From a virus (Duplodnaviria > Heunggongvirae > Uroviricota > Caudoviricetes), in IMG/VR virus record IMGVR_UViG_2534682163_000012, positions 1 to 26,501 of that record: 26,501 nt of DNA, one strand, 5' to 3'. Each line of letters begins with the position of its first letter. Positions within the stretch are counted from its first letter, which is position 1. The position numbers are program-made. Below, one piece after another: positions 24,001 through 26,501 of this stretch.

Positions 24001-26501
24001 TCTGCATTCATGCCGTAACAACAGGTGTGCAGCGACACTGACCACCAGCTGTTGCGACAAACGGTTATTTGCCGTTAAACTGTTCATGCGTTAGTTTCTC
24101 CACAGACACAAAACGCCACGACGCCCGGAGCTGCACACTCGCGGGCGTCACTCTTTTCTGGAGCGCAGAAAATTTTGTAGACCAGTGCCGCATGCTCCTG
24201 GAGCTTCGAAATTGACAGATACAACTCATCATTCATTGCTGTCTGCTCGTGTGGCTCCACTACCCCATCTTCGATTGCCGAACGAATCTGCTTTGAGTAA
24301 CTCCCGATCTGTTCGATGACTTCCAGCAGGCGCTGGTTTATATCGGCGTTCTCTACTTCCTCAATGTCAGGAAGCGATACAAACACCCCACCAGCAGACT
24401 GTGCGACAGCATCCGCAATGTAGTGAGTGCCAGCCGCGCGCTGTAAAATCATTGCCCATCCCAGCGGGAAAATCTGATCGCCATCGGCACGAAGGCGATT
24501 GAATAAAGCGTTCTCTGTTACATCCAGCCACTCAGCTGCTTCAGCGTAACCACCCGGCAACGCCGCGATAGTTTTTCTGACCGCTTTCACGTACCACTCA
24601 GGCTGTTTTTCCACTTTCCAGTGATGCTTACCCACGGCTTACCTCCTTTTCCTGTGGTTTTAACTCATTCCGGTTTTGACTAGATTGAAAGCGAGCAGGA
24701 TAGAGAATCTGCATTTCGCTGATTTCTCCCTTAAAAAAATTGGCCAGACGCTCTGCCAGATCGATAGATGGAATTTGTTCCAGTCTCTCAATACGACTCA
24801 GCGTCGCTGGATTAACCTGAACACCCGCAGCAACATGCTGCAAAGTAAATCCGTGCGCCTTACGCACATTTCGTAATGGTGATTGCATATAACCTCCACA
24901 TATTGCGTGATAAGCATATTATTTCACGCAAATATTTTGCGCAAGTTGATTTGCTTAACGCGCAATAAAGAAATGTAATAAACGCATGAACATAGGAAAT
25001 CGAGTCAGACAACTTCGCCAGGCGAAGAACATGAAAATCGCCGATCTCGCTGAAGCAATAGGAGTGGATGCGGCGAATATCTCACGCCTGGAAACAGGTA
25101 AGCAGAAACAATTCACTGAACAAGCCCTGAGTAATATTGCCAGGAGCTTAGGTGTTGATATTGCAGATCTCTTTACCTCAGACTTCAAAAGTAATACTGT
25201 ATGTAAAAACAGTACTGGTGAGGATGTTGCGCAGGTGAAGGATGTATTCCGTATTGAAATGCTGGATGTCAGTGCCAGTGCGGGAAATGGCCTTATCCAG
25301 GGCGGTGATGTCATTGATGTGATTCATGCCATTGAATACATAACTGATAATGCTGTATCGATGTTTGGAGGACGACCAGCCAATCACATTAAAGTTATCA
25401 ACGTTCGTGGGGACAGTATGTGTCCAACCATTGAGCCAGGAGATCTCATCTTCGTTGATATCAGTATCAATCAGTTTGATGGGGATGGTATCTATGTGTT
25501 TGGTTTTGATGATAAAATTTATGTCAAACGACTGCAAATGATACCTGACAAACTACTGGTGATTTCTGATAACCAGATTTACCGTGAATGGGGAATTACC
25601 AGCGAAAACGAACACCGGTTTATGGTCTTTGGGAAGGTCTTAATCAGTCAGTCACAAACCCTTAAGCGACACAATTAACCCCGACCTCCTCATCAATTAG
25701 CCACCAGAAGGTGGCTTTTCATCACCCATCATATTGCGCATCTCGCAACAAAACACTTGCATAATGCGCAATTTCATTTTATCTTTCTTTCCAGACCAAC
25801 AAACAAGGTCCTAACAAAATTTGGTTGTAACACGGCGTATGGCACATGCGTCGTTAGCGGTCTGGGGACGTTAAAGGGGACAATCCACTCCTTGCTCGGG
25901 CAAACAAACCAGGTAGCCGGAATGTGCAAGTCAATGAGGATGCTGATAAGACGCCTAACCAGCGTGGCGATTCGGTTTGACGCCTGGGAAGAGACCAGGA
26001 CGCAACGATGAGAGCATTGATGAGCAAGGCATAAGTGCTGGTTCAATTCCAGACAGTCCCATTCAGATGGGAGGGTTGGGCAGGGAAAAGGTCCGTTCGA
26101 TTCGGACACCGGCAATGCTCTCAGCGTTGTGGTGAATGCGCAGGCTGATGCGCGAAAGACATTGCAGCTATTGCGGAAAAGAGCTGTTCGGCGGGGCAAT
26201 CAAACGCCCGTGAGAGTCTGAAATAACCGCAAGCCGGAGATCAGCACCGGTCACCACAACAGCCACTGCTTTGGCAGTACCAGTTTGTACACTTGCTTCC
26301 GGCTGGTACCGCTCTTTTTACAAAACAGAGAAGAGCATCACCGGACGACGGGCTCATAACCCAATCCATCCGGGCGGCTGCCACCGCAGGTGTTCTTCTC
26401 TGTTTTGTGGAGAAACCAACCGACCTTGCAGGGTCGATATGATGAGGAGCAACAAAATGGCTAGCGAACGCAGTACTGATGTGCAGGCATTTATCGGGGA
26501 G

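What the first reader, a model, noticed from the sequence alone, without database searches (positions are those of the whole stretch)
25725..26456. Long leader without ORFs between cI and the next gene, with boxA-like sequence and hairpins
After the cI terminator there are about 730 bp without a convincing ORF before the next start codon. They contain a pL/oL-like operator-promoter, a boxA-like CGCTCTTTTTACAAAAC, a 14-bp perfect inverted repeat enclosing 61 nt just upstream of the next gene (position analogous to the processed hairpin in the lambda N leader), and two hairpins with 7-nt UUCRAUU loops (CUGG-UUCAAUU-CCAG at about 26037-26055, GUCCG-UUCGAUU-CGGAC at 26091-26107). The region could hold nut/put-type antitermination signals or a structured RNA. 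Lambda has rexAB here, a locus that often carries defence cargo.
Basis: inference. Interest (0 to 1): 0.4.

Follow-up and report, generated by a model that had tools for sequence, protein, structure and literature searches.

The report
Phage early-leader RNA array, new core
The 780-base "empty" stretch after the phage repressor gene is a string of structured non-coding RNAs: one is the published small RNA sRNA-17, and upstream of it lies an unannotated, pseudoknotted RNA family shared by lambda-like phages, phage P1 and epsilon15-like phages.

Summary
It is not a nut or put leader, and it is not coding.

The + strand carries a modular ncRNA locus, in this order:
1. An oL/pL-like operator-promoter.
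2. A ~190-nt core RNA (25832-26019). Five helices and two pseudoknots are proposed; four helices and one pseudoknot pair covary. It has no Rfam match. It occurs in lambdoid pL leaders, the P1 ban operon and epsilon15-like morons.
3. A long covarying helix, P6. Its insert is lineage-specific and holds the two "UUCRAUU" hairpins.
4. sRNA-17 (26126-26318), a published RNA that folds as a tRNA-like cloverleaf. It ends at a hairpin plus U tract, and that hairpin's 3' arm is the "boxA-like" sequence.
5. Its tip copies the anticodon arm of initiator tRNA.

Real tRNAs sit exactly at the module junctions in P1 and epsilon15-like phages. The most likely mechanism is therefore a precursor cut by tRNA-processing enzymes into separate stable RNAs, with most transcription stopping at 26318. 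This step is inferred. The function of the core is unknown.

sRNA-17 is already known. The core family and the overall architecture are new.

The parts
25700..25719 (+). Terminator-like hairpin after the cI-like repressor gene (GCCACC-AGAA-GGUGGC + UUUU)
   Evidence: Read from the sequence. The equivalent hairpin in SfV is annotated as a rho-independent terminator.
25728..25785 (+). oL/pL-like operator-promoter: ATATTGCGCA (25731-25740), ATAATGCGCA (25761-25770), -35 TTGCAT (25757-25762), 17-nt spacer, -10 TATCTT (25780-25785). Inferred transcription start about 25792.
   Evidence: The only three exact ATWWTGCGCA sites in the window are these two and one in the cro-cI spacer. Inverted repeat I2. 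The same -35/-10 geometry occurs in L010 and ST64B. The promoter is inferred, not shown.
25819..25831 (+). Short conserved 5' flank AUUUGGUUGUAAC. In P1 it starts 2 nt after the CCA end of tRNA-Ile(CAU).
   Evidence: Pairwise alignment with P1 and the P1 annotation.
25832..26019 (+). Core structured RNA, a new family. P1 25832-40/25846-54 with loop GGCAC. PK1 25842-45 with 25924-27. P2 25857-65 with 25909-17, enclosing variable hairpins. Variable hairpin P3 about 25931-50. P4 25951-54/25962-65 with loop CUAACCA. PK2 25957-60 with 25974-77. P5 25983-87/25995-99 with loop GAAGAGA.
   Evidence: 39 diverse sequences: 93.8% of cells paired against 24-45% when partners are slid, 13 pairs with changes on both sides, 92 such cells, 0/500 shuffles reach this. 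Covariance model R1 scores 147.8 bits here (the window's own sequence is in the model). It is the only hit in the window, and independent hits of 90-169 bits occur in Citrobacter, Klebsiella, Kluyvera, Kosakonia, Phytobacter and Enterobacter genomes. No Rfam hit at E up to 10. U-G pairs that are invariant or nearly so point to RNA of the + strand.
26003..26129 (+). Helix P6 (26003-26019 with 26113-26129) enclosing a variable insert (26020-26112). In this window the insert is a degenerate tRNA-like cloverleaf with hairpins 26038-52 (loop UUCAAUU), 26058-71 and 26091-107 (loop UUCGAUU).
   Evidence: The arms covary across representatives, for example CAACGAUGAGAGCAUU/AGUGCUCUCAGCGUUG versus CAACAGGUAAGAGCAUU/AGUGCUCUUUCCGUUG versus CAACAUGAGAGCGCACU/AGUGCGCUCCCAGUUG. 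The insert ranges from 5 to 168 nt. mEp460 replaces exactly 26023-26115. ARAGORN reports a tRNA-like object at 26033-26122 only at a relaxed threshold.
26126..26318 (+). sRNA-17 (193 nt): tRNA-like cloverleaf followed by a terminator. P7 26126-34/26252-60. D-like arm 26138-42/26149-53. Long central arm 26171-76/26227-32. T-like arm 26233-37/26247-51. Terminator hairpin 26273-85/26301-13. U tract ends at 26318.
   Evidence: All published sRNA-17 primers map here with 0-1 mismatch. The 'full-length' primers define 26125-26157 and 26287-26318. The 5'-RACE primers and the Northern probe are antisense to the window + strand, and the 3'-RACE primers are sense (PMC7719688 Table S2). MFE cloverleaf. 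The positional homologue in ST64B hits Rfam STnc100 at 35.1 bits, E 8e-6. The terminator stem covaries.
26310..26326 (+).
   Evidence: Sequence, family comparison, and the sRNA-17 3' end at 26318.
26320..26408 (+). Inner hairpins are CCGGA..UCCGG and GCGG-CUGCCA-CCGC. The tip at 26346-26362 is CGACGGGCUCAUAACCC, a look-alike of the initiator-tRNA anticodon arm.
   Evidence: Inverted repeat I1. z = -4.86. 16/17 identity and an exact 14-mer shared with E. coli metZ; 1 of 2000 shuffles does as well. Conserved in 35 of 122 loci, with compensating changes in L092, L086 and ST64B.
26421..26459 (+). Small hairpin CGACC-UUGCAG-GGUCG (26421-36), RBS GAGGAG (26444-49) and the start codon of the YfdP-like gene (ATG 26457).
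   Evidence: Sequence. CDS annotated in phage 1720a-02. The protein has no Pfam family; the next gene is DUF2303/YfdQ.

Best explanation
The gap is a modular non-coding RNA locus read on the + strand from the pL-type promoter. A published qRT-PCR amplicon shows that it is also transcribed at some level in lysogens.

One precursor carries four elements in tandem:
(a) a ~190-nt core RNA with two proposed pseudoknots, belonging to a previously unannotated family;
(b) helix P6 with a lineage-specific tRNA-like insert;
(c) sRNA-17, a cloverleaf-shaped, STnc100-like RNA that ends at an intrinsic terminator;
(d) after read-through, a 5'-UTR hairpin that mimics the initiator-tRNA anticodon arm, just ahead of the YfdP-like gene.

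Shown:
- the structures (by covariation) and the family's distribution;
- the non-coding nature of the region;
- the identity and strand of sRNA-17, with ends at 26126 and 26318 (published RACE and Northern data mapped here);
- the existence of a transcript that spans the core and sRNA-17 (published qRT-PCR amplicon, 25819-26271).

Inferred:
- The precursor is cut at the tRNA or tRNA-like junctions by tRNA-processing enzymes, RNase P type. This would release the core plus P6 as a separate stable RNA whose 3' end is protected by P6.
- Most transcripts stop at 26318, which keeps the downstream genes quiet unless read-through occurs.
- The core acts in trans as a folded RNA that binds a protein or a small ligand. 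Its target is unknown.
For: Structure and family:
- The core helices covary strongly, and invariant or nearly invariant U-G pairs indicate + strand RNA.
- P6 and the terminator stem covary.
- The core is autonomous and mobile. It occurs in at least 120 IMG/VR viral-metagenome contigs and in many phage records (164 records match some part of the leader). 1,852 of 5,426 complete E. coli genomes carry some part of the locus.
- It is found behind cI genes of at least five different immunity types, in P1, and in epsilon15-like phages with its own TTGACA promoter.

tRNA punctuation:
- In P1 the element starts 2 nt after tRNA-Ile.
- In epsilon15-like phages a real tRNA-Arg(UCU) starts at the last base of P6.
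- In the window that slot holds the cloverleaf of sRNA-17. Its mapped 5' end is the first base of the acceptor-like stem P7.
- No promoter-like hexamers precede 26126.

Other points:
- sRNA-17 was detected by RACE and Northern blot. Its 3' end lies at the U tract, and yfdP gives about 0.5 reads in the wild-type lysogen (PMC7719688).
- P1 keeps the core without P6, P7 or the terminator, so the core has a role of its own.
- No frame is conserved.
Against: - No direct evidence that the core accumulates as a separate RNA.
- The 5' end of sRNA-17 could be a primary start. The RACE method used does not distinguish the two, and the authors assumed a promoter and showed ArcA-P binding to DNA of the core region.
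- RNase P cleavage is untested, and P7 lacks a 3' CCA in the window.
- The fold energy of sRNA-17 alone is not better than shuffles (z = -0.43).
- PK1 is invariant, so it cannot be tested by covariation. PK2 rests on a single clade (4 of 39 sequences).
- The core always lies upstream of genes on the same strand, which also fits a cis role.
Confidence: 0.6

Rival explanations
1. Cis-acting antitermination leader (nut- or put-like). The nascent core RNA, or the boxA-like site, modifies RNA polymerase so that pL transcripts read through terminators into the early-left genes.
For: - The position is right: just after an early promoter, in phages that lack an N gene.
- It is followed by a terminator-like hairpin.
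- CGCUCUUU matches the first 8 bases of consensus boxA (consensus from my own knowledge).
- The mEp phages were isolated as Nus-dependent (PMC11893012).
- HK022 shows that an RNA alone can do this (PMC9378689).
Against: - There is only one copy in the window and none on the pR side.
- The core model does not match HK022 putL, and the architecture differs: five helices and two proposed pseudoknots against two stem-loops of about 70 nt.
- The boxA-like string is not conserved in the family, and no boxB follows it.
- In the RS218 lysogen a transcript containing the whole core exists, yet the RNA ends at 26318 and yfdP is almost silent. A constitutive put-like element would not behave this way.
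- In P1 no terminator-like hairpin was seen by eye in the ~100 nt between the core and ban (no terminator scan was run on P1).
Confidence: 0.12
2. The core region is DNA-level regulatory sequence, namely the ArcA-controlled promoter of sRNA-17 as published, and not an RNA.
For: ArcA-P shifted a fragment equal to 25819-P6 in EMSA. The authors predicted a promoter there, and sRNA-17 levels depended on arcA and oxygen (PMC7719688).
Against: - Compensatory changes and conserved U-G pairs fit RNA helices, not protein-binding DNA.
- The core occurs without sRNA-17 in P1 and directly upstream of a tRNA in epsilon15-like phages.
- No sigma-70 match lies upstream of 26126.
- The authors' own qRT-PCR forward primer sits at 25819-25840, so the 'promoter' is itself transcribed on the same strand.
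Confidence: 0.1
3. Riboswitch-like attenuator. The core is a ligand-binding aptamer that controls termination at 26318, or processing, and so controls expression of the early-left genes.
For: The fold is complex, pseudoknotted and junction-rich, with many invariant unpaired bases. It sits in a 5' leader, and a terminator lies downstream.
Against: Between the core and the terminator lie 250-600 nt of interchangeable modules, including whole tRNAs. No alternative pairing links the aptamer to the terminator. P1 has the core with no terminator. The downstream genes are unrelated across contexts.
Confidence: 0.08
4. Relic of a decayed phage tRNA cluster or recombination scars, with no present function. 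The hairpins would be leftovers of T arms, acceptor stems and an anticodon arm.
For: The locus is full of tRNA-like pieces, and the modules are shuffled between phages at tRNA borders.
Against: The helices are maintained by compensatory substitutions across genera. Identity is 95-99% in most matching E. coli records. sRNA-17 is expressed and has published phenotypes. The core itself has no tRNA resemblance.
Confidence: 0.05
5. Unannotated small protein genes, for example the 141-aa minus-strand ORF 25774-26199 or mEp460_037.
For: ORFs exist, and mEp460 annotators called two of them.
Against: No frame is open across the family, and lengths vary without 3-periodicity. PGAP calls none under the matches listed. 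P1 and SPN9TCW annotate nothing there apart from the start of SPN9TCW's tRNA-Arg feature.
Confidence: 0.02

Closest known systems
sRNA-17 of E. coli K1 RS218 (Front Microbiol 2020, PMC7719688)
   Same: Window 26126-26318 is this RNA. Every published primer and probe maps with 0-1 mismatch, the prophage type is the same (mEp460-like), and the downstream genes yfdP and yfdR are the same.
   Different: The paper treated it as a stand-alone gene with its own ArcA-regulated promoter. It did not note the cloverleaf fold, the STnc100 relationship, the co-transcribed upstream structured RNA or the pL context. It covers only about a quarter of the region in question.
STnc100 / PasD prophage sRNAs (Rfam RF02076; bioRxiv 10.64898/2026.05.13.724894)
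   Same: The architecture is the same: closing stem ..UGGUGAAU, a first hairpin, a variable middle, and a last hairpin abutting CACCA.. The ST64B and P1 homologues of this slot hit the model at 35 and 33 bits. A bona fide STnc100 lies elsewhere in the window (14272-14482).
   Different: The window's copy gives no STnc100 hit even at E up to 10, so it fails the family threshold. The genomic position also differs: early leader rather than late region.
HK022 put RNAs (processive antitermination)
   Same: Structured RNA encoded directly downstream of pL in an N-less lambdoid phage.
   Different: put is about 70 nt with two stem-loops and is present after both pL and pR (PMC9378689). Here the core is 190 nt with five helices and two proposed pseudoknots, and there is a single copy. 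The core model finds nothing in HK022. Published lysogen data show termination downstream of it rather than read-through.
Lambda nutL (boxA-boxB plus N)
   Same: Same map position, and an 8-nt boxA-like match.
   Different: There is no boxB and no N protein. The boxA-like string is part of a terminator stem and is not conserved in the family.
GOLLD and ROOL large ornate RNAs
   Same: Complex-folded RNAs of unknown function that occur in phages and prophages, often next to tRNAs and possibly co-transcribed with them (PMC5737381).
   Different: No sequence or model similarity. The core is much smaller (190 nt; about 300 nt with P6). The host range differs: Enterobacteriaceae rather than Firmicutes and rumen or lake metagenomes.
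P1/P7 C4 and P4 CI RNAs (small RNAs cut out of an operon leader by RNase P; from my own knowledge)
   Same: The working model is the same: a phage regulatory RNA matured from a leader transcript by tRNA-processing enzymes. C4 homologues are present elsewhere in this window.
   Different: No sequence or structure relation. C4 and CI act as antisense immunity RNAs on nearby targets, and no such targets were found here.

Membership tests
Lambda-type nut site | boxA sequence (consensus CGCUCUUUA / UGCUCUUUAACA) | tested here: inconclusive
   CGCUCUUUUUAC at 26310-26321 matches the first 8 bases. The homologous position in other family members is CCGCCCCUUUUAC, CCGUCACUUUUAC or CCGCACUUUUUUU, and the string forms the 3' arm of a hairpin.
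Lambda-type nut site | boxB: short hairpin (5-bp stem, purine-rich pentaloop) a few bases after boxA | tested here: not met
   The next structure is an 89-nt hairpin domain with 25-nt arms. No boxB-like hairpin is present.
Lambda-type nut site | N-family arginine-rich antiterminator encoded in the operon | tested here: not met
   Pfam scan of the first ten pL-operon proteins of the identical phage 1720a-02 finds no N family. Hits are YfdQ/DUF2303, an HD phosphatase, DUF551, Ead/Ea22, an exonuclease and PrtN.
HK022 put RNA | About 70 nt, two stem-loops, similarity to putL/putR | tested here: not met
   putL was read from HK022 and shows no evident similarity by eye. Model R1 finds nothing in the HK022 immunity region. 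Architecture as described in PMC9378689.
HK022 put RNA | A copy downstream of each early promoter (pL and pR) | tested here: not met
   R1 gives a single hit in the 26.5-kb window, which includes the pR operon.
HK022 put RNA | Promotes read-through of downstream terminators | not testable with these tools
   Published data point the other way. The sRNA-17 3' end lies at the hairpin and U tract, and yfdP gives about 0.5 reads in a lysogen that expresses a transcript containing the core.
tRNA | Cloverleaf accepted by ARAGORN or the Rfam tRNA model | tested here: not met
   No tRNA in 25700-26501 at default settings. Only a degenerate object at 26033-26122 appears at 80% threshold. Real tRNAs occupy the equivalent slots in P1 and epsilon15-like phages.
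Rfam STnc100 (RF02076) | Score at or above the gathering threshold of 47 bits | tested here: not met
   No hit in the leader at E up to 10. Positional homologues score 35.1 bits (ST64B) and 33.4 bits (P1).
sRNA-17 | Sequence identity with the RACE-defined 193-nt RNA and its probe | tested here: met
   18 primers and probes were mapped. Those on sRNA-17 itself (the full-length pair, five RACE primers and the Northern probe) match with 0-1 mismatch, and the ends define 26125/6-26318. The primers that differ more (mutagenesis arm, 3 mismatches; promoter-fragment primer, 10 mismatches) lie over the P6 3' arm and insert, where the window differs from mEp460.
Intrinsic terminator | G+C-rich hairpin followed by a U tract, with an RNA 3' end there | tested here: met
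   Hairpin 26273-26313 (one A-C mismatch in this window, perfect in mEp460) followed by UCUUUUU. The published 3'-RACE end is at 26318. The simple scan missed it because the loop exceeds 8 nt.
GOLLD / ROOL | Match to the Rfam covariance models | tested here: not met
   No hit. Only the context, phage plus adjacent tRNA, is similar.
New core family (model R1) | Conserved helices P1, P2, P4, P5 with compensatory changes, invariant junction GGUAGCCGGAAUGUGCAAG, loops GGCAC, YUMACCA and GAAGAGW | tested here: met
   Window 25832-26019 scores 147.8 bits, E 9e-39 (the window's own sequence is in the model's alignment). Pair counts.

The most novel reading that the evidence does not exclude
The core is a new class of trans-acting, pseudoknotted phage RNA that is matured by the host tRNA-processing machinery and has a specific molecular target. 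The leader as a whole is an array of tRNA mimics (T arms, an acceptor/D/T cloverleaf, an initiator anticodon arm). Phages would deploy it early to occupy or decoy tRNA-directed host factors, for example anticodon nucleases of the VapC or PrrC type, which cut tRNA-fMet or tRNA-Lys. This would be an RNA-based counter-defence or host-takeover module, shared horizontally among lambdoid, P1-like and epsilon15-like phages.
Probability: 0.15. Interest if true: 0.85.

Novelty: new variant of a known kind. Interest (0 to 1): 0.62.

Why it matters
- Some part of this locus is present in about a third of complete E. coli genomes and in many phage records. The core itself occurs in textbook phage P1, epsilon15-like phages and Stx-converting phages. 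Yet the core has no annotation, no Rfam family and no proposed function.
- The analysis re-reads a published virulence-linked sRNA (sRNA-17). That RNA appears to be the 3' product of a longer structured precursor transcribed from the phage early or immunity region. Its supposed "promoter" is itself a conserved RNA.
- It gives a concrete, testable case of tRNA-punctuated ncRNA operons in temperate phages.
- It offers an enterobacterial, genetically tractable counterpart to the enigmatic tRNA-adjacent phage RNAs GOLLD and ROOL.
- The initiator-tRNA anticodon-arm mimic in the 5' UTR of the first early-left gene is a separate lead for translation control or toxin decoys.

Tried and rejected
- Rfam at gathering and at E up to 10 over the region: nothing relevant.
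- ARAGORN at default settings: no tRNA or tmRNA. Relaxed and intron modes give only implausible calls, apart from the degenerate object in the P6 insert.
- HK022 put: fetched and read; model R1 does not hit it.
- K-12 CPS-53: lacks the leader except for the last ~25 nt before yfdP, so K-12 data sets cannot help.
- SfV and ST64B: no R1 core even with filters off. ST64B has another 5' domain that retains a GUAGCC..GUGCAAGC-like string.
- Genome-wide degenerate pattern scan: 17 specified bases were too few for 596 Gb. Of the 80 hit loci searched with R1, 13 were confirmed, all Enterobacteriaceae.
- Literature searches by sequence string, P1 ban operon, P1 transcriptome and N-independent antitermination found nothing on the core. 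The Minerva preprint and the PreS paper are unrelated.
- RS218 is not in the E. coli collection, so sRNA-17 was mapped through its primers instead.
- Cargo genes downstream of the element in epsilon15-like and other phages are unrelated to one another and mostly have no family, so they give no functional clue.
- Coding hypothesis rejected.
- Thermodynamic stability alone is weak for sRNA-17 (z = -0.43) and moderate for the core plus P6 (z = -2.32). The case rests on covariation, not on folding energy.
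Full report
**Observation.** The window's 3' end is the immunity region of an SfV/mEp460/1720a-02-type lambdoid Stx phage. The region is 100% identical to Escherichia phage 1720a-02. A cro-like gene (24628-24888, minus strand) faces a cI-like S24 repressor gene (24986-25678, plus strand). The next credible gene, a YfdP-like protein, starts at ATG 26457 behind GAGGAG.
- A terminator hairpin after cI lies at 25700-25719.
- Two operator-like ATWWTGCGCA boxes lie at 25731 and 25761. 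The only other exact copy in 26.5 kb is in the cro-cI spacer.
- They overlap a TTGCAT-17-TATCTT promoter-like site. The consensus match is weak, but the geometry is conserved in homologues of other immunities.
- The T-loop-like hairpins lie at 26038-26052 and 26091-26107.
- The boxA-like string lies at 26310-26326.
- The inverted repeat is 15 bp perfect, with 25-nt arms at 26320-26344 / 26384-26408.
- The 671-nt leader folds better than all shuffles (z = -3.75).

**Not coding, not a known RNA.**
- ARAGORN and Rfam find nothing in the region, even at E up to 10.
- The ORFs inside it are short and not conserved. Among 49 family representatives no reading frame stays open, and lengths vary without 3-periodicity.
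- PGAP annotates nothing under the matches listed among 2,050 matching E. coli records.

**A mosaic of modules shared with unrelated phages.** BLAST against phage genomes shows that the leader is built of blocks that occur separately in very different phages.
- Block 25819-26022 is about 79% identical to P1. There it begins 2 nt after tRNA-Ile(CAU) and ends about 100 nt before ban.
- The same block, extending to 26132, is 79-88% identical to epsilon15-like phages such as phiV10 and SPN1S/SPN9TCW. There it follows its own TTGACA promoter and abuts a tRNA-Arg(UCU).
- A 19-mer from the block retrieved at least 120 IMG/VR contigs. These cluster into 49 types at 96% identity or less.
- Most lie directly behind cI-like genes of at least five different immunity types, that is, in pL leaders. 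Others are P1-like or epsilon15-like.

**The core RNA.** An alignment of 39 diverse copies shows a conserved structure.
- Five helices are proposed (P1-P5): hairpin P1 with loop GGCAC, helix P2 enclosing variable hairpins, variable hairpin P3, hairpin P4 with loop YUMACCA, and hairpin P5 with loop GAAGAGW. P1, P2, P4 and P5 were scored on the alignment; P3 was judged by eye only.
- The junction GGUAGCCGGAAUGUGCAAG is invariant, but it was the 19-mer used to retrieve the loci, so its invariance is by construction.
- Of the scored pairs, 93.8% of cells are paired, against 24-45% when partners are slid.
- 13 pairs change on both sides (92 cells), which 0 of 500 shuffles reach.
- Typical swaps are G-C/A-U in P1, CUGG/CCAG versus CCGG/CCGG versus CCAC/GUGG in P2, ACGC/GCGU versus GGGA/UCCU in P4, and CCUGG/CCAGG versus CCUCG/CGAGG versus GCCGG/CCGGC in P5.
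- U-G pairs that are invariant or nearly so fit RNA of the + strand only.
- Two pseudoknots are proposed. PK1 pairs loop GCAC with GUGC; both sides are invariant, so it is untestable by covariation. PK2 pairs the P4 loop MACC with GGUK; it is C-G in 35 sequences and A-U in 4, the latter all from one clade.
- A covariance model (R1) finds exactly one copy in the window (25832-26019, 147.8 bits; the window's own sequence is in the model's alignment). It finds none in HK022, SfV, ST64B or K-12 CPS-53.
- It finds true copies only in Enterobacteriaceae genomes among the loci fetched.

**What follows the core.**
- Helix P6 (26003-26019 / 26113-26129) covaries clearly and encloses an insert of 5-168 nt.
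It is present in only 3 of 49 types, and mEp460 replaces exactly 26023-26115. Only a relaxed ARAGORN run sees it as a degenerate tRNA-like cloverleaf.
- Immediately after P6, in about two-thirds of types (34 of 49 representatives), comes GUUGUGG...CCACAAC (P7).
- In epsilon15-like phages this slot is a genuine tRNA-Arg that starts at the last base of P6.
- In the window the slot folds as a four-arm cloverleaf: an acceptor-like stem, a D-like arm, a long central arm and a T-like arm.
- Its homologues in ST64B and P1 hit Rfam STnc100 below threshold, at 35 and 33 bits.
- Then comes a conserved, covarying G+C-rich hairpin and a U tract (26273-26318). The boxA-like string is this hairpin's 3' arm plus the U tract. 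In other members the same position is not boxA-like.

**Link to the literature.**
- A 193-nt RNA, sRNA-17, was mapped by RACE and Northern blot in the mEp460-like prophage of E. coli K1 RS218 (PMC7719688).
- Mapping its primers onto the window shows that sRNA-17 is the + strand RNA 26126-26318. Its 5' end is the first base of P7 and its 3' end is at the U tract. The 5'-RACE primers and the Northern probe are antisense to the + strand.
- The paper's "promoter fragment", which bound ArcA-P, is the core plus P6.
- Its qRT-PCR amplicon (25819-26271) spans the core and sRNA-17, so a common precursor exists in the lysogen.
- yfdP gave about 0.5 reads in the wild type and 47 after the sRNA-17 body was replaced by a cat cassette. 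This fits efficient termination at 26318, or alternatively cassette read-through. It does not fit a constitutive put-like antiterminator upstream.

**Mechanism.** The best-supported model is an ncRNA operon punctuated by tRNAs or tRNA-like domains. The evidence is the tRNA after which the core starts in P1, the tRNA at the end of P6 in epsilon15-like phages, and the cloverleaf whose first base is the mapped sRNA-17 5' end. Together they point to RNase P-type processing that releases the core(+P6) and sRNA-17 as separate RNAs. This step is inferred. No promoter-like hexamers precede 26126. P1 keeps the core alone, so the core has its own function. I take this to be a trans-acting folded RNA with an unknown partner.

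The rivals are a nut/put-like leader, a DNA promoter, a riboswitch, a tRNA relic and small ORFs. Each is weighed in the rival-explanations section. None fits all the data.

**The last module.** The 25-nt-arm hairpin (26320-26408, z = -4.86) lies beyond the sRNA-17 terminator, in the 5' UTR of the YfdP-like gene.
- Its tip, CGACGGGCUCAUAACCC, matches the anticodon arm of E. coli initiator tRNA in 16 of 17 bases, with an exact 14-mer. It includes the three G-C pairs and the CUCAUAA loop. Only 1 of 2000 shuffles does as well.
- It is conserved in relatives, with compensating changes in the enclosing stems.
- Whether this is a functional mimic or a relic is open.

**Comparison and novelty.** No N protein is encoded in the operon. 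The site is a variable cargo slot: SfV carries orf33 plus terminators there, and ST64B has another 5' RNA domain. sRNA-17 is already known. The core family, P6, the tRNA-punctuated architecture and the anticodon-arm mimic are not described in the searched literature or in Rfam. The nearest analogues in kind are the GOLLD and ROOL RNAs, which occur in phages next to tRNAs.

Noticed in passing
window 26346-26362: CGACGGGCTCATAACCC at the tip of the long hairpin matches the anticodon arm of initiator tRNA-fMet in 16 of 17 bases (three G-C pairs plus loop CUCAUAA). It lies about 95 nt upstream of the yfdP-like start. It could be a decoy for VapC-type toxins, a ribosome or IF3 ligand, or a tRNA relic.
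   Followed up: partly
window 3877-4065 and 23539-23727 (minus strand): Two tandem isrK + C4 antisense-RNA pairs (Rfam 59-82 bits). One lies upstream of the Rha-like antirepressor gene next to the immunity region.
   Followed up: no
window 14272-14482 (minus strand) and 15897-16148 (minus strand): A full-length STnc100 sRNA (145.8 bits) and a cluster of three tRNAs (Met/Ile2-CAU, Arg-UCG, Arg-UCU) in the late region. The same kinds of module (tRNA plus STnc100-like RNA) recur in the early leader.
   Followed up: partly
L003 (phage P1) 2071-2190 and 1795-1835; P1 coordinates about 70080-70199 and 69804-69844: The P1 ban operon holds a sub-threshold STnc100-like element (33.4 bits) between upl and tciA. 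A second copy of the 'P6 3' arm + GUGGUGAAUGCRCAGGCUGAUGYGC' motif lies inside the region annotated as plp on the opposite strand. The plp/upl annotation may hide sense-strand ncRNAs.
   Followed up: partly
L249 (Salmonella phage ST64B) 828-1642: An 815-nt ORF-free leader after cI with the same downstream modules: a P6-like helix, an STnc100-like cloverleaf at 1298-1416, the hairpin with U tract, and an anticodon-arm-like hairpin with loop CUCAUUA. Its 5' domain is different and retains only a GUAGCC..GUGCAAGC-like string. ST64B is resident in Salmonella SL1344, for which transcriptome maps exist.
   Followed up: partly
L250 (phage SfV) 629-1268: At the position of the RNA core, SfV has a 98-aa gene (orf33) flanked by two annotated terminators. 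The slot between cI and the yfdP-like gene is therefore an exchangeable cargo site.
   Followed up: no
L004, L005, L020, L024, L029, L095 and similar (epsilon15-like contigs), +400 to +1300 from the anchor: Downstream of promoter-core-tRNA-Arg-terminator lies a hypervariable gene slot. It holds unrelated small proteins: a family with a similar N-terminal region and likely membrane and coiled-coil character (judged by eye from the sequences), a Phage_gp49_66 protein, and others without any family. The cassette sits between the terminase and portal genes on the opposite strand, like a moron.
   Followed up: partly
L092 1077-1203 (minus strand): The Rfam tRNA model hits a 127-nt stretch (43.9 bits), that is, a tRNA with a large insertion, about 450 nt downstream of the core in a contig whose post-P5 domain is of a different type (AUCAGCCAUUCAC...GCUUAGCGGGACUGGAAGAG).
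   Followed up: no
window 26113-26155: The string CAAUGCUCUCAGCGUUGUGGUGAAUGCGCAGGCUGAUGCGC (P6 3' arm plus the start of the cloverleaf) is 90-100% conserved in otherwise unrelated phages: 157-160-kb Klebsiella phages, ~47-kb Escherichia and Salmonella phages (e.g. Escherichia phage 6947, vB_Se_STGO-35-1), Erwinia phiEt88 and Cronobacter ES2. This suggests a much wider family of tRNA-like phage sRNAs.
   Followed up: no
window 25819-26125, compared with PMC7719688: The DNA fragment used as the 'sRNA-17 promoter' in ArcA gel shifts is the transcribed core RNA. The qRT-PCR assay reported as sRNA-17 measures the core-sRNA-17 precursor. The published oxygen, ArcA and growth-phase effects may therefore reflect precursor (pL or read-through) transcription.
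   Followed up: partly
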